In this document: positions 2,400-13,305 of the stretch, piece by piece
Layout: the number at the start of each line of letters is the position of its first letter
Numbering within the stretch: position 1 is the stretch's first letter
Origin: an uncultured Planctomycetia bacterium
GTDB taxonomy: Bacteria; Omnitrophota; Gorgyraeia; 2-02-FULL-51-18
DNA: 64,000 nt
Direction: 5' to 3'
Assembly (NCBI GenBank): GCA_964612035.1
Contig: CAZTBX010000099.1
Location: forward strand, 3,194-67,193
Made by a program: the position numbers and the translations under genes
The notes under the pieces: generated by a model
The model's input: only the letters and a program-made list of their open reading frames with translations
Told to the model about the DNA's origin: nothing
Databases searched by the model: none

Positions 2400-2436
2400 C
2401 CCAGCCTTGATTGGGGCCGGTAGGGCCTGTTCGCTA

Positions 2437-2499
2437 TCCGCCTCCAAAAAGATTTTTTGCACGGAAATGGCACCCTGTGTCGTCCTGTTAGGTGGGAGG
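2437..2499. repeat. Left terminal inverted repeat of the accessory island (core ~56 bp at 2444-2499)
   Basis: tccgcctCCAAAAAGATTTTTTGCACGGAAATGGCACCCTGTGTCGTCCTGTTAGGTGGGAGG is the reverse complement of 4675-4731 with about 7 mismatches in 56. Confidence 0.8.
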
Positions 2500-2529
2500 C
2501 AAGCCATGCAGGAAGGCGTCACAAGGCTA

Positions 2530-2566
2530 TTGAAATATGTATAATTATATGTATACTTATATGTAT
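2530..2566 (+). promoter_or_regulatory. Sigma70-like promoter for brnTA with overlapping ATATGTAT direct repeats (candidate operator)
   Basis: -35 TTGAAA at 2530-2535, a 16 nt spacer, and -10 TATACT at 2552-2557. ATATGTAT(A) recurs at 2535-2543, 2547-2555 and 2559-2566 with ~12 bp periodicity. Confidence 0.5.
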
Positions 2567-2580
2567 CGGGCGAGGCCCAC

Positions 2581-2859
2581 ATGGACGTAGAATATGGGGG
2601 TTTCGTCTGGGACGATAGAAAAGAAGCCGAGAATATCCTCAAGCATGATGTTGATTTTAAGTCCGCATGCAGGGCGTTTCTCGATCCGGATAGAAAGGTA
2701 TTTAGAGATTCAAAACACAGCCGCTATGAGACGAGAAAGTTTTGCATCGGAAAAGTGGACAACCAGATCATGACGGTCCGATTTATGGTGAGAGAGCATA
2801 AGATCCGTATCATCGGCGCCGGTTATTGGAGACAGGGGAGGGCCTACTACAATGAATAA
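2581..2859 (+). CDS. brnT: BrnT-family (DUF497) type II toxin
   Basis: 92 aa. The layout FVWDDRKEAENILKHDVDFKSACRAFLDP...IRIIGAGYW matches BrnT/DUF497. Its stop overlaps the brnA start. Confidence 0.75.
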   Translation: MDVEYGGFVWDDRKEAENILKHDVDFKSACRAFLDPDRKVFRDSKHSRYETRKFCIGKVDNQIMTVRFMVREHKIRIIGAGYWRQGRAYYNE

Positions 2860-3091
2860 AAAAGTTCATGACCCAAATATGCCTGTCGGCAAATTGACAA
2901 GGGTCGTCGATGACCTGCCGCCGCCAAGCGAGCTCGCAAAACCCTTGCAAGGTGTGCGCATCACCATCATTGTCAGCAAGTCCAGCGTGGAATACTTCAA
3001 AACGAACGCCCGCAAATATCACACGAAGTATCAACGCATGATGCGCGAGGTGCTGGACAGCTATGTCTCCCGCCAGGCAGTCGCGCACTAA
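2852..3091 (+). CDS. brnA: BrnA-family antitoxin (RHH/CopG-like)
   Basis: 79 aa. The C-terminal motif VRITIIVSKSSVEYFKTNARKYHTKYQRMMREVLDSYV matches the BrnA pattern (V.L.L..DV.EWFK...GYQTRIN..LR.YM). It overlaps brnT by 8 nt. Confidence 0.7.
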   Translation: MNKKVHDPNMPVGKLTRVVDDLPPPSELAKPLQGVRITIIVSKSSVEYFKTNARKYHTKYQRMMREVLDSYVSRQAVAH

Positions 3092-3181
3092 TAAACAGCC
3101 GGAGGTCCCGTTCGCCGTCACCCGTTCGCTAGCTTAGTCTAATGCCTCCCCACCGACTGCGTCCGGTATGCGCCCCTAATT

Positions 3182-3240
3182 TCCGCCTTATTTTAAAATA
3201 ATCTGCACGGAAAATGCCTGGTCCGTCGTCTTGTATAGCA
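3182..3240. repeat. Degenerate internal third copy of the island terminal repeat, in the same orientation as the left copy
   Basis: tccgccttattttaaaataatcTGCACGGAAAATGCCTGGTCCGTCGTCTTGTATAG aligns with 2437-2499. Shared blocks are tccgcct, TGCACGGAAA(A)TG and GTCGTC(C/T)TGT. Confidence 0.55.
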
Positions 3241-3261
3241 GAAACCGTAAAGTGAGAGGTC

Positions 3262-3290
3262 TTGAAAAAACAACTTATAGGTTGTATACT
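3262..3290 (+). promoter_or_regulatory. Sigma70-like promoter for the XRE regulator module
   Basis: -35 TTGAAA at 3262-3267, a 17 nt spacer, and -10 TATACT at 3285-3290. The hexamers and spacing match the brnTA promoter. Confidence 0.5.
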
Positions 3291-3301
3291 TTAGGAGCGG
3301 T

Positions 3302-3388
3302 ATGTATTCGGTCAGGTTCTTTAAAGAAGAGATCGCCACCGCTTTGAAGAGAAAACGGATATTTGAGGGGAGAAGTATCGATGAATAA
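3302..3388 (+). other. 28-codon upstream ORF (MYSVRFFKEEIATALKRKRIFEGRSIDE), possibly a decayed toxin remnant or a leader peptide
   Basis: ATG at 3302 lies downstream of the promoter. The TAA stop at 3386-3388 overlaps the ATG of the XRE gene at 3381. It sits where a HigB/RelE-like toxin usually precedes this antitoxin type. Confidence 0.25.
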
Positions 3389-3710
3389 ACACTTGGGTTC
3401 GGATCTCAAAGAGACCTATAAGAAATTTGCTAAGGCAAGCCCTAAAAATGCACTCGAAGCCCAAATTCTGACCGGTAAACTCGAAATGGCGAATTTACTG
3501 ATCTCTCAAAGGGAAGATCTCGGTCTCAGCCAGAAAAAATTGGCTGAAAAACTGGGTGTTAAGCAGCAGCTCATCAGCAAAATAGAAAGCGGCTCTAACA
3601 ATATTACACTCGATACGCTGATCCGAGTATTGACCGTTTTGGGGGTCGCTTTGAAGGTCGAGAGAGTTAAATTAGAGAGAGCTCAAAAGGTATTACAATT
3701 TGTAACATGA
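3381..3710 (+). CDS. XRE-family helix-turn-helix protein resembling HigA-type type II antitoxins; orphan, with no intact toxin
   Basis: HTH core LSQKKLAEKLGVKQQLISKIESGSNNITLDTLIRVLTVLG. The RBS gaggggag lies 8 nt before the ATG at 3381. The ORF track starts at 3363 using TTG. Confidence 0.7.
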   Translation: MNKHLGSDLKETYKKFAKASPKNALEAQILTGKLEMANLLISQREDLGLSQKKLAEKLGVKQQLISKIESGSNNITLDTLIRVLTVLGVALKVERVKLERAQKVLQFVT

Positions 3711-3728
3711 ATTGACCGTCCTCCGCCC

Positions 3729-3831
3729 ATAGAATGGTACCGTAGAATGGTACCGGGTACGGAGGGGACAGCTACCAGAGTGTAACGTGTCCCTTTGGTA
3801 AGCGGTACCGTTCTACGTTCTACGTTCTATG
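3729..3831. repeat. Iteron-like array of the GTAGAAYGGTACC motif plus three tandem GTTCTAC heptamers
   Basis: ATAGAATGGTACC at 3729-3741 and GTAGAATGGTACC at 3742-3754 lie in direct orientation. GGTACCGTTCTAC at 3804-3816 is the inverted form. GTTCTAC repeats at 3810-3816 and 3817-3823, followed by gttctat at 3824-3830. Confidence 0.7.
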
Positions 3832-4126
3832 ATCGACGCTCGCCACACGCCGGCTCTCCATTGATTGACTCGTTTTTGGATTAGAGTTAACCTCTTTCTT
3901 TAGGATGTTGTCCGATATATGTCATGTAAGCAAATAGCCTCGGAAAAATTAAGTTATGATTAGCGACGCTTTGTCTCTGATTGATTTTCTCAAAAAACAC
4001 TTGATGGAATACTCAGTTAAAAGTGCATTGTTTAACTCTGACGGTATCAGGATTGAAGGAGACAGTTTTATTGAAATAGATAAAATCCCAGTCCAGTGTA
4101 GAACGGTACCGCTTACCAAAGGGACA
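3788..4126. repeat. Perfect 29 bp inverted repeat pair (3788-3816 and 4098-4126) enclosing ~280 bp of AT-rich DNA
   Basis: TGTCCCTTTGGTAAGCGGTACCGTTCTAC at 3788-3816 is the exact reverse complement of GTAGAACGGTACCGCTTACCAAAGGGACA at 4098-4126. Confidence 0.85.
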
Positions 4127-4135
4127 GGTTGTTAG
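3956..4135 (+). CDS. Hypothetical 59 aa ORF (MISDALSLIDFLKKHLMEYSVKSALFNSDGIRIEGDSFIEIDKIPVQCRTVPLTKGTGC)
   Basis: Open frame from ATG 3956 to TAG 4133-4135. It is just under the 60 aa ORF-track threshold, has no clear RBS, runs through the right 29 bp IR, and overlaps the ORF6N stop by 4 nt. Confidence 0.2.
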   Translation: MISDALSLIDFLKKHLMEYSVKSALFNSDGIRIEGDSFIEIDKIPVQCRTVPLTKGTGC

Positions 4136-4668
4136 TATTTGACATGAAAACCGACCGGTTTTTTCGGCGTCGATTTTGGTGATTCGAGCAATTCCTTGAG
4201 AGCCTCAAAAACGACTTTGAATTGCTTATCGTGTTTTTCGTATTTCCTCTCCAGTTCCTCGATCTTCTGACGGACAAGCTCATTGGTAGCGACCATTTCG
4301 CGGAGTTTGATGAAAGCCCGCATGATCAGGATATTGGCCTGCACTGCCCGGGGACTGTTGAGTATCCCGGAAAGCATGGCTACTCCTTCCTGGGTGAAAG
4401 CGTAAGGTAGGTAACGCCGCCCTCCACGGCCTTTGTTTGAGGTTCCAAATTGGAACCTCAAAGATTCAGCCTCATCAGCCGTTAAACGAAACATAAAGTC
4501 TTCTGGAAATCGGCTTATGTTTCGCTGAACAGCTTTATTTAGATTTTTAGTTAGGACGCCATAGAGTTCCGCAAGCTCACGGTCCAACATGACCTTTTTA
4601 CTCCTAATAAAATAGATCCTCCGCTCGACTTGCTCGTGCGAAAGCATGATATTCCCGTGTTTTGTCAT
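4132..4668 (-). CDS. ORF6N/KilA-N domain DNA-binding protein with a C-terminal coiled coil
   Basis: 178 aa. The core VMLDRELAELYGVLTKNLNKAVQRNISRFPEDFMFRLT...GRGGRRYLPYAFTQEGVAMLSGILNS is typical ORF6N. An AGGAGG RBS 7 nt upstream lies inside the right terminal repeat. This is the only minus-strand gene in the window. Confidence 0.75.
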   Translation of the reverse strand: MTKHGNIMLSHEQVERRIYFIRSKKVMLDRELAELYGVLTKNLNKAVQRNISRFPEDFMFRLTADEAESLRFQFGTSNKGRGGRRYLPYAFTQEGVAMLSGILNSPRAVQANILIMRAFIKLREMVATNELVRQKIEELERKYEKHDKQFKVVFEALKELLESPKSTPKKPVGFHVKY

Positions 4669-4674
4669 GACACC

Positions 4675-4731
4675 CCTCCTTACCTAACAGGACGACGGAG
4701 GGGGTCATTTCCGTTCAAAAAATCTTTTTGG
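4675..4731. repeat. Right terminal inverted repeat of the accessory island
   Basis: CCTCCTTACCTAACAGGACGACGGAGGGGGTCATTTCCGTTCAAAAAATCTTTTTGG is the reverse complement of 2444-2499 at ~87% identity. It contains a CCCCTCC(17 nt)GGAGGGG hairpin and supplies the ORF6N RBS. Confidence 0.8.
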
Positions 4732-4776
4732 CCCGCTCGCCCCACAACGCTCGCCACCCGCCAGCCCCACAGCGGT

Positions 4777-4805
4777 TTGACAGCTCAAGCCCTAGTCGCT
4801 ATAAT
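4777..4805 (+). promoter_or_regulatory. Sigma70 consensus promoter upstream of lysS
   Basis: -35 TTGACA at 4777-4782, a 17 nt spacer, and -10 TATAAT at 4800-4805. Confidence 0.6.
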
Positions 4806-4852
4806 AATTTCCATAAATTTAAGTAAGCAAAGAAGTTGCGAAAGGAACGGGC

Positions 4853-6304
4853 TTGAAAGAAGAAAACGAGCTTGTTAAAGAACGCTTTAAAAAGTTAGAG
4901 CAGATAAAGGCCATGAATATAGACCCTTTCGGGGGAAAATTCCCGAAGCAGGGGCCTATTTCTGAGCTTCCCAAGCTTGTGGAAGGCAGTCGCGTGGCCT
5001 CAGCCGGCCGCCTCTCGGCCATGCGTGTCATGGGCAAGTCCGTGTTCTGCGACCTGAAAGATGAAAGCGGCCGCATCCAGCTTTATATCAAGCACGAGAA
5101 TCTCGGCGACGCGCAATTCTTGCTTTTTGAGCGCCTCGACATCGGTGACATCATCGGCGTCGAGGGCGAGCTTTTCAAGACCAAGACCGGCGAGATCTCC
5201 ATCCGCGTCGAAAAACTTTCACTGCTTGCAAAAAGCCTGAGGCCTTTGCCGGAAAAATGGCATGGCCTGAAAGACGTCGAGGCGCGCTACCGCCAGAGAT
5301 ACCTCGACCTCATTTCCAACGACGAGACAAAGGACATTTTCCGCAAGCGTTCGATGATCATCCGTGAGATACGCCGCGTGCTCGATGACAAAGGCTATCT
5401 CGAAGTCGAGACGCCCATGATGCATCCCATCCCCGGCGGGGCGGCGGGGAAACCGTTCAAAACGCATCACGAGGCGCTGGACCTGGACCTTTTTCTACGC
5501 ATCGCGCCGGAACTTTACCTGAAAAAGCTTTTGGTCGGCGGTTTCGACAAGGTGTATGAGATCAACAAGAGTTTCCGCAACGAGGGCATCTCCACGCGGC
5601 ACAATCCCGAATTCACCATGCTCGAGGTGTACACGGCGTATCAGGACTGCGAGGACGTCATGCAGCTCACCGAGGACATCGTGAAGCATGCCGCGCAAAG
5701 CGTGTTTGGCACGCTGACGCTTGAGCAGGGCGGCCGCGTGCTCGACCTCTCCAAATGGGAACGCGTGTCTTTCGCGGCGCTCATGAAAGATTCTTTCGGC
5801 ATCCTGCCCGATGACGATATCGCCTCGTGGCCGGACAAGCTGCGCAAAAAGGGCGTGAAGATAGAAAAAAAGGACCTGTCGAGGACTCAGCTCATCAACA
5901 TCATCGCGGACCTGCTCGAGCCCGGCAAAACGGACGCTCACCAGACGCTGAAGCCCATGTTCGTCACGGATTATTTTTCAGAACTTTCGCCGCTGGCGCG
6001 CCGCAACAAGAAGCACCCCGAGCTCAGCGAGCGTTTCGAACTTTATTTTGGCGGCATCGAGATCGCCAACGGCTATTCCGAGCAGAACGATCCCATCGAG
6101 CAGCGTGAACGCCTCGAAGAGGAGATGAGGGAAAAAGGAAAAGGCGCGGGAGAGCTGGACGAAGATTTTCTGACGGCACTCGAGCACGGCATGCCTCCGG
6201 CCGGCGGCCTCGGCATCGGCATCGACCGTCTCGTGATGCTGCTCACCAATCAGCCCTCCATCCGCGAGGTGATCTTATTTCCCCAAATGAAAAAAGAGAG
6301 TTAA
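4853..6304 (+). CDS. lysS: Lysine--tRNA ligase (class II)
   Basis: 483 aa with an N-terminal anticodon-binding OB fold and class II motifs (FRNEGIS, PPAGGLGIGIDRLVM). Confidence 0.9.
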   Translation: MKEENELVKERFKKLEQIKAMNIDPFGGKFPKQGPISELPKLVEGSRVASAGRLSAMRVMGKSVFCDLKDESGRIQLYIKHENLGDAQFLLFERLDIGDIIGVEGELFKTKTGEISIRVEKLSLLAKSLRPLPEKWHGLKDVEARYRQRYLDLISNDETKDIFRKRSMIIREIRRVLDDKGYLEVETPMMHPIPGGAAGKPFKTHHEALDLDLFLRIAPELYLKKLLVGGFDKVYEINKSFRNEGISTRHNPEFTMLEVYTAYQDCEDVMQLTEDIVKHAAQSVFGTLTLEQGGRVLDLSKWERVSFAALMKDSFGILPDDDIASWPDKLRKKGVKIEKKDLSRTQLINIIADLLEPGKTDAHQTLKPMFVTDYFSELSPLARRNKKHPELSERFELYFGGIEIANGYSEQNDPIEQRERLEEEMREKGKGAGELDEDFLTALEHGMPPAGGLGIGIDRLVMLLTNQPSIREVILFPQMKKES

Positions 6305-10827: not shown

Positions 10828-13305
10828 ATGTTCAATAAATTCACCGAACGCGCAAGAAAAGTCATTCTACTTGCCAAGCAGGAAGCCAAACGCTTCAACC
10901 ACGACTACATCGGCACCGAACACATCCTGCTCGGGCTTTTGAGGGAGGGGGAGGGCGTGGCCGCCGCCGTGCTTCAAAGCCTCGGCATGAACCTGAACAA
11001 CATTCGTTTGGAAGTCGAAAAGCTCGTGCAAGTCGGGCCGACCACGGTGGTATCGGGGGATCTCCCGTTCACGCCGAAGGCGAAAAAGGTAATGGAGCTC
11101 GCCATGGAAGAAGCGCGCACGCTGGGCCACAACTACATCGGCACCGAGCATTTGCTTCTGGGCCTCATCCGCGAAGGAGAGGGCGTGGCGAGTCAGGTGT
11201 TCATGAACATGGGTCTGGATCTCGAAAAAGTGCGTGAAGAGGTGATCAAGCTGCTCGGCTCGACGACGCCGGGCGCGCAGTTCGACCCATCGGGACAAAG
11301 CGCCGCACCGACGGGGGGCGGACCGTCTTCCAAGACAAAAACGCCGGCTCTCGACGCTTTCGGCCGCGATCTCACAAAACTCGCCAAAGAAGGAAAGCTG
11401 GATCCGGTCATCGGACGCGACGATGAGATCGACCGTGTCATGCAGACGCTGTCGCGTCGGCGCAAGAACAACCCCGTGCTTCTCGGAGAAGCCGGTGTCG
11501 GCAAGTCCGCCATCGTGGAAGGGCTGGCGCAGAAAGTGTTCAGTGGGGATGTCCCCGAGATCCTGCGCAACAAGCGCATCATCACGCTAGACCTAGCACT
11601 CATGGTGGCCGGGACCAAATACCGCGGCCAGTTCGAAGAACGCATCAAGGCCGTCATGGATGAGATCAGGCGTTCGGAGAACGTGATCATGTTCGTCGAC
11701 GAGCTGCACACGCTCGTGGGCGCCGGAGGCGCCGAAGGGGCCATCGATGCCTCCAACATTCTGAAGCCAGCCCTTGCTCGCGGCGAGATCCAGTGCATCG
11801 GCGCGACGACGCTGGACGAATACCGCAAATACATCGAAAAAGATTCGGCCTTGGAACGGCGCTTTCAGGTCATCATCGTGGACCCGCCGTCCGTGGAGGA
11901 GACCATTCAGATCCTGCGTGGCCTGCGGGACAAATACGAGGCCCATCACAAGGTCAAGTTCCTCGACTCGGCGCTCGAGGCCGCGGCGAAACTTTCCGAC
12001 CGCTACATCGCCGGACGCTTTCTGCCGGACAAGGCCATCGACGTCATCGACGAGGCCGGCGCGCATGCCCGGCTCAACACCTACACGACACCGCCCGAGG
12101 TCAAAGAGCTGGAGAAAAGGCTCGAAGTGATCAAGCACGAGAAAGAGGACACGATCAAGGAGCAGGATTTCGAAAAGGCGGCGGCCCTGAGAGACCAGGA
12201 GAGGGAAACGCGCCGTTTGATGGACAAGACGAAAAAAGAGTGGATGGAGACGCGCTCGAAGATCGAGCTCGAGATCGGCGAAGACGACATCGCGAAGATC
12301 ATCTCCAAGTCCACGGGCATCCCTATTTCGCGTCTCGAGGAAAAAGAGACGGCGCGGCTTATGCGCATCGAGGACGAGCTTAGGAAGCGCGTCGTCGGCC
12401 AGGAAGAGGCGATCTCGACGATCTCGCATGCGGTGCGCCGCTCGCGCGCAGGCCTGAAAGACCCGCGCCGGCCCATCGGTTCTTTCATTTTCCTCGGGCC
12501 CACCGGTGTCGGCAAAACGCTTCTGGCCCGCGCGCTCGCGGAATTCCTTTTCAACGACGAGAACGCGTTGATCAGCTTTGACATGTCGGAGTACATGGAA
12601 AAATTCAACGTGTCGCGGCTGGTCGGCGCCCCGCCGGGTTATGTCGGATATGAAGAAGGTGGACAGCTCACCGAGCGCGTGCGCCGCCGGCCGTATTGCA
12701 TCGTGCTTTTCGACGAGATCGAGAAGGCGCATCCGGACGTGTTCAACCTTCTGTTGCAGGTGCTGGAGGAAGGCCGTCTCACCGATTCACTCGGCCGCAA
12801 GGTGGATTTCCGCAACGTGCTGCTCATCATGACGTCGAACCTCGGCGCCGAGTACCTGCGCAAGCAGGGCAGCATCGGCTTCAAGGCTCAGGCGGACAGC
12901 ACGGATTACAAGGACATGAAATTGCGTCTGATGGAAGAGGTGAAAAAGACTTTCAAGCCCGAGTTCATCAACCGCGTGGATGACATCGTCGTGTTCAAGA
13001 AGCTCTCGAGGGAGCAGCTCGAGCTGATCATCGAGATCGAAGTGGCGGGCCTGAAAAAGCGCCTCACCGAGAAGGGTATCGAGATCGTGCTCGACCAGAA
13101 GGCGAAAGATTTCCTCATCGATAAAGGGTTCGATCAGGCCTTCGGCGCGCGGCCCCTGAAGCGCACGCTGCAGAAGTATCTCGAGGATCCGATCGCCGAA
13201 GAGCTGATCTCGCGCAAGATACGGCCCAATGACGTCATACACGTTTCCGTGAAAGAGGGTGAGGACGGCCTCGCCTTTCATCAAGGGGCTGGCGTCACCC
13301 GCTGA
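10828..13305 (+). CDS. clpC: ATP-dependent Clp protease ATP-binding subunit ClpC
   Basis: 825 aa with a duplicated Clp N-domain, two AAA+ modules ([30 protein letters not shown]) and a UVR-like linker (FEKAAALRD). Confidence 0.95.

What the first reader, a model, noticed from the sequence alone, without database searches (positions are those of the whole stretch)
3729..4126. Iteron-like GTAGAAYGGTACC array and a perfect 29 bp inverted-repeat pair enclosing 280 bp of AT-rich DNA
Four copies of a 13 bp motif lie at 3729-3741 and 3742-3754 (direct), 3804-3816 (inverted) and 4098-4110 (direct), together with three tandem GTTCTAC heptamers at 3810-3830. These are embedded in or adjacent to a perfect 29-mer inverted pair (3788-3816 and 4098-4126). 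Arrays of direct and inverted binding-site repeats next to AT-rich DNA are typical of plasmid or phage replication origins and partition sites, or of multi-site operators. The block lies between the XRE regulator and the DNA-binding ORF6N protein, so either could be the cognate binder. It could also be the terminal inverted repeats of a tiny nested MITE-like element.
Basis: seen in the sequence. Interest (0 to 1): 0.6.

Follow-up and report, generated by a model that had tools for sequence, protein, structure and literature searches.

The report
Transposase-linked repeat cluster, not an origin
The repeats are three copies of a 33-base unit that, in related Omnitrophota bacteria, flanks a small tyrosine (RAYT-type) transposase gene on both sides, so this is a cluster of REP/MITE-like mobile repeats and not a replication origin, partition site or operator.

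Summary
The window holds three copies of a 33-nt unit, GTAGAAYGGTACC-N10-GGGACAGGTT: A at 3742-3774 (+), B at 3784-3816 (-) and C at 4098-4130 (+). Short partial copies of the unit's 5' head lie next to A and B.

The origin/operator reading is not supported. The same unit occurs beside unrelated genes in about a dozen other genome and metagenome loci. In seven independent loci, inverted copies with the GTAG ends facing outward tightly flank a 195-aa Y1/HUH transposase gene. That protein's best solved relative is E. coli TnpA_REP.

The unit carries a GTAG head, a short covarying hairpin and the GGGGWSAS motif reported for inverted repeats flanking RAYT/TIRYT genes. A/B is a head-to-head doublet, as in a REPIN. 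C is a solo copy identical to B at 32 of 33 positions.

No transposase gene lies in the 64-kb window. The cluster sits in a 2.4-kb toxin-antitoxin island inserted between lnt and lysS of an Omnitrophota genome, and relatives lack the island.

Verdict: a new member of a known kind (REP/TIR-RAYT system), of low to moderate interest. The recurrent 5'-head "stutter" is the only unusual feature.

The parts
3729..3741 (+). Partial 5'-head copy of the unit (ATAGAATGGTACC, unit positions 1-13), in tandem with unit A ('head stutter').
   Evidence: The same kind of partial head duplication is seen in L007, L008, L012, L014, L015, L016 and L019.
3742..3774 (+). Unit A: GTAGAATGGTACCGGGTACGGAGGGGACAGCTA. 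It has a GTAG head, a GGTAC-CGG-GTAC hairpin and the GGGGACAG motif. It is the left arm of the head-to-head doublet.
   Evidence: PWM score 48.4 of 54.5 bits. It matches the RAYT-flanking consensus at 29 of 33 positions by direct comparison with the units listed.
3775..3783 (.). 9-nt spacer (loop) between units A and B.
3784..3816 (-). Unit B: on the minus strand GTAGAACGGTACCGCTTACCAAAGGGACACGTT. It is the right arm of the A/B doublet and matches C at 32 of 33 positions.
3817..3830 (-). Two partial 7-nt head copies of unit B (GTAGAAC and ATAGAAC on the minus strand).
   Evidence: The same heptamer stutter occurs in L012, L007 and L008.
3817..4097 (.). 281-nt AT-rich DNA (38.4% GC) between units B and C. 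By the geometry of the transposase loci it lies outside the elements. Its content is unknown.
   Evidence: No Pfam hit for its ORFs, no Rfam hit, no RAYT similarity, and no similarity to any fetched locus.
4098..4130 (+). Unit C: GTAGAACGGTACCGCTTACCAAAGGGACAGGTT, a solo unit. Its GGTT tail ends 1 nt from the ORF6N stop codon.
   Evidence: It matches at 31 of 33 positions the unit that sits 26 nt beyond the stop codon of the ORF6N homologue in L001, although the two ORF6N proteins are only 49% identical.
3381..3710 (+). Neighbour: XRE/HTH_3 protein (antitoxin-like). It converges on the repeat cluster and is not part of the element.
   Evidence: Pfam HTH_3, E = 6.9e-16.
4132..4668 (-). Neighbour: ORF6N-domain protein. 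It converges on the repeat cluster and is not shown to be part of the element.
   Evidence: Pfam ORF6N, E = 2e-32.

Best explanation
The array is a small cluster of REP/TIR-type repeats belonging to a RAYT-like (REP-associated tyrosine, Y1/HUH) transposase family of Omnitrophota.

The 33-nt unit has a (G)TAG head, a 5-bp-stem/3-nt-loop hairpin (GGTAC-CNG-GTACC), a 3-nt linker and a GGGGACAGGTT tail. In the complete element, two inverted units with heads outward bracket the 195-aa transposase gene.

By analogy with E. coli TnpA_REP and IS200/IS605 (inferred, not shown here), the transposase would recognise the folded top strand of a unit as single-stranded DNA. The head tetranucleotide would help choose the cleavage site. 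The enzyme would then cut and rejoin, spreading units or doublets in trans.

In the window, A/B is a head-to-head doublet, equivalent to an element that has lost its gene (REPIN/MITE-like). C is a solo unit from the same source sequence as B. No transposase gene is present in the 64 kb, so these copies are non-autonomous or relics.

They lie where such repeats are tolerated: between two convergent genes in an inserted toxin-antitoxin island. Any host role, such as mRNA 3'-end protection by the A/B hairpin, is possible but untested.
For: 1. The family exists elsewhere with unrelated flanks. There are 2 genome loci and 11 credible metagenome loci, and 35 units score at least 20 bits in 261 kb against 0 in shuffles.

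2. Inverted units with GTAG outward tightly flank a Y1 transposase gene in L007, L014, L015, L016 (twice), L019 and L022. The usual layout is unit-GAA, about 30 nt, ATG ... stop-ATC-unit.

3. The protein identity is consistent with a RAYT:
- Pfam Y1_Tnp, E = 5e-12.
- The only NCBIfam hit is REP_Tyr_transpos.
- The best PDB match of the family profile is 4ER8, E. coli TnpA_REP (1e-8), ahead of ISDra2 TnpA (6e-4), with the HUH motif and the Y-I-x-x-N-P-V tyrosine aligned.

4. The unit contains GGGGACAG, which fits the GGGGWSAS motif reported for inverted repeats flanking RAYT/TIRYT genes, and it has the GTAG tag of REPs (PMC3733652, PMC6006769).

5. More distant RAYT homologues keep the same architecture with compensatory stem changes (GGGGA/TCCCC, GGGG/CCCC). 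84% of cells are paired against 69.5% in shuffles (0 of 500), with 10 two-sided changes.

6. Doublets with the same orientation and 17-34-nt loops recur in L010 and L013.

7. The unit is far better conserved than its neighbours. It is 31/33 identical between the window and L001, while the adjacent ORF6N proteins are 49% identical.
Against: - No RAYT gene lies in the 64-kb window (tblastn), so the link to a transposase rests on other genomes.
- Copy number looks low. All three units in the window are at one locus. The strict pattern hit only 2 of 185,579 species genomes, each once, and the relaxed pattern hit 12 metagenome contigs. Classical REPs number in the hundreds.
- A single unit is only weakly self-complementary (-5 kcal/mol, not better than shuffles), and units B and C have a mismatched stem.
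- The NCBIfam score (57-65 bits) is below the curated cutoff of 80.
- Two RAYT copies 91% identical lie 2 kb apart in L016. That looks more like an active IS than a domesticated single-copy RAYT.
- No activity of any kind has been measured.
Confidence: 0.8

Rival explanations
1. Relic of a rearranged transposase locus. The three units would be leftovers of one former unit-RAYT-unit element that lost its gene and was broken up by insertions (for example of the ORF6N module). They would not be copies that transposed here independently.
For: - Unit C abuts the ORF6N stop codon (1 nt), much as the downstream unit abuts the RAYT stop codon (3 nt) in L015, L016 and L007.
- In L015 a RAYT N-terminal fragment is cut off exactly at a unit head.
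- In L001 a unit is the junction between an rve-transposase fragment and the ORF6N gene.
- All window copies are at one locus.
Against: - No trace of RAYT coding sequence lies between or beside the units.
- B and C are near-identical while A differs at 8 of 33 positions, which suggests at least two events of different age.
- The B/C orientation (heads inward) is the reverse of a gene-flanking pair.
Confidence: 0.1
2. Protein-binding array: an operator, iteron or partition site bound by the neighbouring XRE or ORF6N protein.
For: - The array has direct and inverted repeats of a 13-mer between two DNA-binding protein genes.
- A unit also lies at the 3' end of an ORF6N homologue in L001, and a doublet lies at the 3' end of an HTH_3 gene in L010.
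Against: - The array lies downstream of both convergent genes, not at a promoter.
- The same unit occurs next to many unrelated genes and flanks transposase genes.
- The XRE proteins of the window and L010 are not detectably related.
- There are no rep or par genes, the locus is a chromosomal site between lnt and lysS, and nothing matches in plasmids or phages.
Confidence: 0.04
3. Invertible DNA switch. The near-perfect 33-bp inverted pair B/C would let the 281-bp AT-rich segment flip, changing antisense or read-through transcription of XRE and ORF6N.
For: - The arms are 33 nt and 97% complementary, 281 nt apart, a typical inverton geometry.
- A weak promoter-like site lies at 4059-4086.
Against: - No recombinase gene lies among the neighbours secA, lnt, BrnTA, XRE, ORF6N, lysS, lolCD and ilvE.
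- The arms are explained as copies of a dispersed repeat family.
- The segment lies downstream of both genes.
Confidence: 0.04
4. Ends of a DDE-type IS or MITE (termini TGT...ACA), or integron attC-like sites.
For: - The unit tail reads TGTCCC outward, like IS3/IS481 ends.
- An rve fragment abuts a unit in L001.
- The doublet is an imperfect hairpin flanked by AAC...GTT.
Against: - There is no target-site duplication around A/B or B/C.
- Conservation extends beyond TGT to AACC.
- The rve fragment is a C-terminal piece, not a gene following an end.
- GTAGAAC/GTTCTAC does not fit the attC consensus RYYYAAC/GTTRRRY (consensus from my own knowledge). No integrase and no array of such sites is present.
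Confidence: 0.02

Closest known systems
REP/REPIN-RAYT systems (REPtrons) of Enterobacteria, Pseudomonas and Stenotrophomonas (PMC2817692, PMC3116915, PMC3333891, PMC3479197, PMC8266576)
   Same: - A short unit with a GTAG head.
- Inverted units flank a Y1/HUH transposase gene.
- Head-to-head doublets form hairpins.
- Units are intergenic, between convergent genes.
- The transposase profile matches E. coli TnpA_REP best.
   Different: - The single unit is barely palindromic: a 5-bp stem against 6-13 bp in classical REPs.
- It has a long conserved non-palindromic tail (GGGGACAGGTT).
- Copy number appears low rather than in the hundreds.
- The GTAG head is degenerate next to the transposase genes (ATAG, CTAG, TTAG).
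- The host phylum is Omnitrophota.
TIRtrons/TIRYT: RAYT-like genes flanked by terminal inverted repeats sharing GGGGWSAS (Di Nocera et al. 2013, PMC3733652); Y1 subclass 2.1 of Quentin et al. 2018 (PMC6006769)
   Same: - The inverted repeats flanking the Y1 gene contain GGGGACAG, which fits GGGG[AT][CG]A[CG].
- Repeat families are moderately abundant and arranged as singles, dimers and clusters.
   Different: - The 195-aa Omnitrophota proteins have only the Y1_Tnp domain. The C-terminal HTH/DnaA_C-type domain of subclass 2.1 appears only in more distant hits of about 306 aa.
- The unit also carries a GTAG tag and a hairpin, so it combines REP and TIR features.
IS200/IS605 insertion sequences (IS608, ISDra2)
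   Same: - A Y1 HUH transposase.
- Subterminal hairpins recognised as ssDNA.
- No target-site duplication.
   Different: - IS200/IS605 ends are not inverted repeats of each other.
- The profile matches TnpA_REP (1e-8) better than ISDra2 TnpA (6e-4).
- Here solo units and doublets occur without a gene.
Plasmid or phage iterons and partition sites
   Same: Clustered direct and inverted short repeats next to AT-rich DNA.
   Different: - There is no rep or par gene and no regular iteron spacing.
- The site is a chromosomal island.
- The repeats are shared with transposase flanks in other genomes.
- Nothing matches in the plasmid or phage collections.

Membership tests
REP/REPIN-RAYT (REPtron) | Short unit (20-50 nt) preceded by a conserved GTAG-type tetranucleotide | tested here: met
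   GTAG heads units A, B and C. Heads next to RAYT genes are often ATAG, CTAG or TTAG. The GTAG in the pattern-found loci is fixed by the search pattern.
REP/REPIN-RAYT (REPtron) | The unit itself is an imperfect palindrome (stem usually 6-13 bp) able to fold as ssDNA | tested here: inconclusive
   The consensus unit folds into a 5-6-bp stem with a 3-nt loop at -5 kcal/mol, not better than shuffles, and units B and C fold poorly. The stem does covary across RAYT subfamilies, but on 15 hand-aligned sequences, and the two-sided changes come from two loci (L024 and L031).
REP/REPIN-RAYT (REPtron) | Inverted units flank a RAYT gene | tested here: met
   Met at seven gene copies in six loci elsewhere: L007, L014, L015, L016 (twice), L019 and L022. 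Not met in the window, where no RAYT is found in 64 kb.
REP/REPIN-RAYT (REPtron) | The protein is a RAYT: HUH motif, catalytic Tyr, RAYT-specific model | tested here: inconclusive
   - Pfam Y1_Tnp scores above its cutoff.
- HUH (NHAHFL) and Y-I-E-R-N-P-V align with 4ER8 TnpA_REP, the best PDB hit.
- NCBIfam REP_Tyr_transpos is the only hit but scores 57-65 bits against a cutoff of 80.
REP/REPIN-RAYT (REPtron) | High genome-wide copy number of the repeat, with a single-copy RAYT | not testable with these tools
   - Only 64 kb of the source genome is available. Its three units are all at one locus.
- There are few hits in the genome and metagenome scans.
- L016 has two RAYT copies.
- Low-copy flanking repeats are known for RAYT groups 1 and 4 (PMC5581495).
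TIRtron/TIRYT (Di Nocera 2013) | Terminal inverted repeats with a GGGGWSAS motif flank the Y1 gene | tested here: met
   GGGGACAG occurs in unit A and in the flanks of L015, L016, L019 and L007. GGGGACAC occurs in L024 and L031. The motif is as quoted.
TIRtron/TIRYT, Y1 subclass 2.1 (Quentin 2018) | C-terminal HTH (DnaA_C-like) domain on the transposase | tested here: not met
   The 194-196-aa proteins have only Y1_Tnp. PF08299 appears only in hits of about 306 aa at 40-45% identity.
Plasmid/phage iteron origin or partition site | Regularly spaced direct repeats next to a cognate rep or par gene on a replicon or prophage | tested here: not met
   - The neighbours are lnt, BrnTA, XRE, ORF6N and lysS.
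- Synteny shows a chromosomal island.
- There is no plasmid or phage match.
- Replication activity is not testable here.
Inverton (invertible promoter) | Inverted repeats flanking a promoter, with a site-specific recombinase nearby, and both orientations present in a population | tested here: inconclusive
   The inverted repeats are present, no recombinase lies in the first 9 kb of the window, which contains the array, and there is only a weak promoter-like site. Orientation polymorphism cannot be tested without reads.
DDE-type MITE | Terminal inverted repeats plus a target-site duplication, related to the ends of a DDE IS | tested here: not met
   There are no direct repeats flanking A/B or B/C. 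The full-length elements carrying these units encode a Y1 transposase, not a DDE transposase.

The most novel reading that the evidence does not exclude
The recurrent 'head stutter' may be an in-vivo footprint of the Y1 transposase's cleavage and strand-transfer chemistry. The stutter consists of tandem partial copies that always restart at (G)TAG and stop after 7, 12, 13, 17 or 24 nt. It occurs only on the 5' side of a unit and is seen in 11 of 35 units across unrelated loci. If the reading is right, these Omnitrophota units record where the enzyme cuts and rejoins. That would give a direct handle on how RAYTs disseminate REPs, which the literature still calls unresolved.
Probability: 0.2. 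Interest if true: 0.55.

Novelty: new member of a known kind. Interest (0 to 1): 0.3.

Why it matters
It removes a false lead: there is no hidden replicon or partition site here.

It extends REP/TIR-RAYT systems to Omnitrophota, an uncultured phylum known almost only from metagenome-assembled genomes. The unit combines the GTAG tag of REPs with the GGGGWSAS tail of 'TIRtron' repeats.

The family is low-copy and strongly conserved across genomes. Its transposase gene can be duplicated. It may therefore sit between an active IS200-like element and a domesticated RAYT, which bears on how such systems evolve.

The head stutter could inform the unsolved dissemination mechanism. Practically, these units mark junctions of accessory (toxin-antitoxin and defence) islands and can mislead annotation, because ORFs read through them.

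Tried and rejected
- Rfam at E <= 1 over 2400-5000 gave only a chance miRNA hit.
- No intrinsic terminator-like site was found in 3100-4900.
- Pfam found nothing for the two small ORFs in the AT-rich segment.
- tblastn of RAYT proteins against the window found no gene or relic.
- Exact-protein look-ups of ORF6N and LolD found nothing on record. The source contig appeared only through LysS (P0121), with no accession or name.
- A single-sequence PDB search found nothing; the family profile was needed.
- blastn of the 281-bp segment against all fetched loci found nothing.
- Plasmid and phage collections gave no match.
- Viral contigs hold no close ORF6N relative and only RAYT relatives at 32-35% identity, without the unit.
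- L003 was set aside as a probable chance pattern match (15 bits, GC-rich context).
- I considered and dropped CRISPR repeats (no spacers; tandem and inverted copies), attC sites (consensus not met, no integrase), Tn7/Mu-type multi-site ends and IS481 ends (no DDE gene associated), and a structured RNA for the second 'leader' motif (no covariation).

Full report
**1. The observation**

The sequence is as described, with small corrections.
- Positions 3729-3754 hold two tandem 13-mers, ATAGAATGGTACC then GTAGAATGGTACC.
- An inverted 13-mer lies at 3804-3816 and a direct one at 4098-4110.
- Positions 3810-3830 read GTTCTAC GTTCTAC GTTCTAT.
- The 13-mer gives 4 matches in 64 kb against 0.85 expected.
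- The 29-mer pair is perfect and never occurs in shuffles. It extends to 33 nt with one mismatch and encloses 281 nt of 38% GC DNA, against 57.5% for the window.

- A, 3742-3774 (+).
- B, 3784-3816 (-).
- C, 4098-4130 (+).

B and C agree at 32 of 33 positions. A agrees with C at 25 of 33. A and B form an imperfect hairpin with a 9-17-nt loop: -24.6 kcal/mol as ssDNA, z = -4.4. The extra 13-mer and the two extra heptamers are partial copies of the unit's 5' end.

**2. Context**

- The cluster lies between the 3' ends of two convergent genes, an HTH_3/XRE protein (3381-3710) and an ORF6N protein (4132-4668, minus strand). A BrnT/BrnA toxin-antitoxin pair lies upstream.
- The surrounding genes are secA, lnt, lysS, lolC, lolD and ilvE.
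- LysS has a 100% match on a 70-kb NCBI/Logan contig. Most of its named relatives (five of six) are from Candidatus Omnitrophota/Omnitrophica.
- In three relatives (LysS 73-76% identical) the order secA-lnt-lysS-lolC-lolD is kept. lnt and lysS are only about 100 bp apart there, with a conserved TTGACA-N17-GATATAAT promoter.
- So window 2400-4776 (46.8% GC) is an inserted accessory island, and the repeat cluster is part of it.
- Rfam finds nothing. No terminator-like site is predicted.

**3. The unit is a family**

- A degenerate pattern found the unit in two species genomes: L001, an Omnitrophota MAG, and L002. A relaxed pattern found it in 12 metagenome contigs, one of them probably by chance.
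- The flanks are unrelated from locus to locus. They include a PIN toxin operon, Gp49/HTH_3 toxin-antitoxin operons, a RhuM gene, a D12 methyltransferase/ParB-like island and two tRNA genes.
- Three arrangements recur:
  - inverted pairs with GTAG outside and 17-34-nt loops (window A/B, L010, L013);
  - head-to-tail full units (L007, L009);
  - tandem partial head copies.
- A weight matrix finds 35 units in 261 kb of non-redundant sequence and none in shuffles.

**4. What the unit belongs to**

- In L007 and L014 the inverted units bracket a 194-195-aa ORF. It matches Pfam Y1_Tnp, and its only NCBIfam hit is REP_Tyr_transpos, below the curated cutoff.
- A protein search found 264 homologues, several named as Omnitrophota transposases.
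- Every fetched homologue at 56% identity or more to the L007 protein is flanked the same way: P0003, P0005, P0007 (two gene copies) and P0030. The usual layout is unit-GAA, about 30 nt, ATG ... stop-ATC-inverted unit, with heads outward.
- The family profile matches E. coli TnpA_REP (4ER8, E = 1e-8) better than ISDra2 TnpA (6e-4). The HUH motif and the catalytic Tyr (Y-I-x-x-N-P-V) are aligned.

This is the organisation described for REPtrons and 'TIRtrons'.
- REPs are short palindromes preceded by GTAG. They occur as singles, as head-head, tail-tail and head-tail dimers, and as clusters, mostly between convergent or co-directional genes (PMC3733652; PMC8266576).
- Some RAYT-like genes are instead flanked by longer inverted repeats sharing GGGGWSAS (PMC3733652; PMC6006769).
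- The present unit has both features: a GTAG head and GGGGACAG.

**5. Anatomy and constraint**

- The unit reads (G)TAGAAC, then GGTAC-CNG-GTACC, then NNN, then GGGGACAGGTT.
- More distant RAYT homologues (44-51% identity) have different flanking units. L024 and L031 keep the plan hairpin, 3 nt, GGGGACA[CG], with the stem changed to GGGGA/TCCCC or GGGG/CCCC. L032 has a related unit without a clear hairpin.
- On a hand-registered alignment of 15 units the five stem pairs are formed in 84% of cells against 69.5% in shuffles (0 of 500). There are 10 two-sided changes, and the structure beats all slid controls. The independent lineages are few, so this is supportive only.
- A single unit folds weakly, and units B and C have a C-T mismatch in the stem. 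The window copies may be decaying.
- The unit is much better conserved than its surroundings. It is 31/33 identical between the window and L001, where the adjacent ORF6N proteins share 49% identity and the DNA is poorly alignable.

**6. How it most likely works**

Shown here:
- the family;
- its association with a Y1/HUH transposase;
- its geometry;
- its dispersal to unrelated sites.

Inferred from E. coli TnpA_REP and IS200/IS605 (PMC8266576):
- the enzyme binds the folded top strand as ssDNA;
- it uses the head tetranucleotide to select a nearby cleavage site;
- it cuts and rejoins, moving units or doublets without target duplication.

In these terms:
- A/B is a gene-less head-to-head doublet (REPIN/MITE-like).
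- C is a solo copy from the same source as B.
- The 281-bp AT-rich DNA lies between elements, because in the B/C pair the heads face inward, the reverse of a gene-flanking pair.
- No RAYT gene or relic lies in the window. The copies therefore depend on a transposase elsewhere in the genome or are relics.

**7. The odd feature**

- Extra head copies lie within 30 nt upstream of 11 of 35 units, against about 0.6 expected.
- They always restart at TAG. They end after 7, 12, 13, 17 or 24 nt and never occur on the tail side.
- One base of microhomology at the junctions is too little for simple slippage. My guess is aberrant cleavage and strand transfer, or re-initiation at a nick. This is untested.

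**8. Rivals**

- An operator, iteron or partition function is unlikely:
  - the array is downstream of both genes;
  - the unit is shared with many unrelated contexts;
  - the locus is chromosomal;
  - the plasmid and phage collections hold nothing similar.
- An invertible switch cannot be excluded without reads, but it lacks a recombinase and is not needed to explain the repeat.
- DDE-type MITE and attC readings fail their defining features.
- A 'rearranged relic of one former transposase locus' remains a reasonable variant of the main explanation.

**9. Verdict**

- This is a known kind of element (REP/TIR repeats of a RAYT-type transposase) in a phylum where I found no description of it. 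A literature search combining Omnitrophota with transposase or 'repetitive extragenic' returned nothing relevant.
- Copy number appears low, as reported for RAYT groups 1 and 4 (PMC5581495).
- The transposase gene can be duplicated: two copies 91% identical lie in L016. The family may therefore be closer to an active IS than to a domesticated RAYT.
- Interest is low to moderate.

Noticed in passing
window 2444-2493 (+), 3195-3234 (+), 4682-4731 (-); also L001 about 2455 (+) and 6983 (-); L010 4407 (-) and 6435 (-): A second, unrelated repeat: a motif of about 45 nt (roughly ATTTTTTGAACGRAAAT..CCCTCC..CGTCGTCYTRTTAGGT) lies just upstream of the RBS or promoter of BrnT, XRE and ORF6N in the window, and upstream of BrnT, ORF6N and two Gp49-type toxin operons elsewhere. 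Copies 1 and 3 form a 50-nt, 90% complementary inverted pair that brackets the whole 2.3-kb island. It has no Rfam hit and no RNA covariation. It may be a shared promoter/operator or a cassette boundary of toxin-antitoxin modules.
   Followed up: partly
window 2400-4776: The BrnTA-XRE-repeats-ORF6N block (46.8% GC against 57.5% for the window) is an insertion between lnt and lysS. Three relatives keep secA-lnt-lysS-lolCD with only about 100 bp between lnt and lysS and a conserved lysS promoter.
   Followed up: yes
window 3836-3854 and 4747-4765: A 19-nt direct repeat, ACGCTCGCCACACGCCGGC / ACGCTCGCCACCCGCCAGC (17 of 19 identical), flanks the segment that holds the AT-rich DNA, unit C, ORF6N and the leader motif. 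It may be a junction footprint of a two-step assembly of the island (D2).
   Followed up: no
L001 6013-6385: A unit forms the exact junction between the ORF6N module and an 84-aa C-terminal fragment of an rve (IS481/IS3-type) transposase. That fragment in turn truncates a host gene after about 24 codons. This fits reports that REPs are IS targets (PMC1525189, title and abstract only).
   Followed up: partly
L015 9777-9983: A 68-aa N-terminal RAYT fragment (MPRRPRILEDGGIYHVYSRGNN...) is cut off exactly at the head of a 24-nt partial unit, just upstream of the intact RAYT gene.
   Followed up: no
L016 8026-8613 and 10001-10588: Two RAYT genes 91% identical lie 2 kb apart, each with its own flanking units, and a fifth unit at 11690 repeats the same upstream flank. 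This suggests the gene plus its units can duplicate like an IS.
   Followed up: partly
window 4436-4462: A perfect 13-nt inverted repeat with a 1-nt gap (TTTGAGGTTCCAA T TTGGAACCTCAAA) lies inside the ORF6N coding sequence (I5).
   Followed up: no
window 3303-3389: A 28-codon ORF overlaps the XRE start codon (ATGA overlap), downstream of a promoter-like site at 3262-3290. It could be the remnant of a truncated toxin gene of a HigBA-type pair. This was not verified.
   Followed up: no
window 2528-2575 and 4069-4086; L001 about 2540-2590: Repeated ATATGTATA motifs lie upstream of BrnT in both the window and L001 and are a probable BrnA operator. An 18-nt stretch similar at 15 of 18 positions lies just before unit C (D3).
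   Followed up: no
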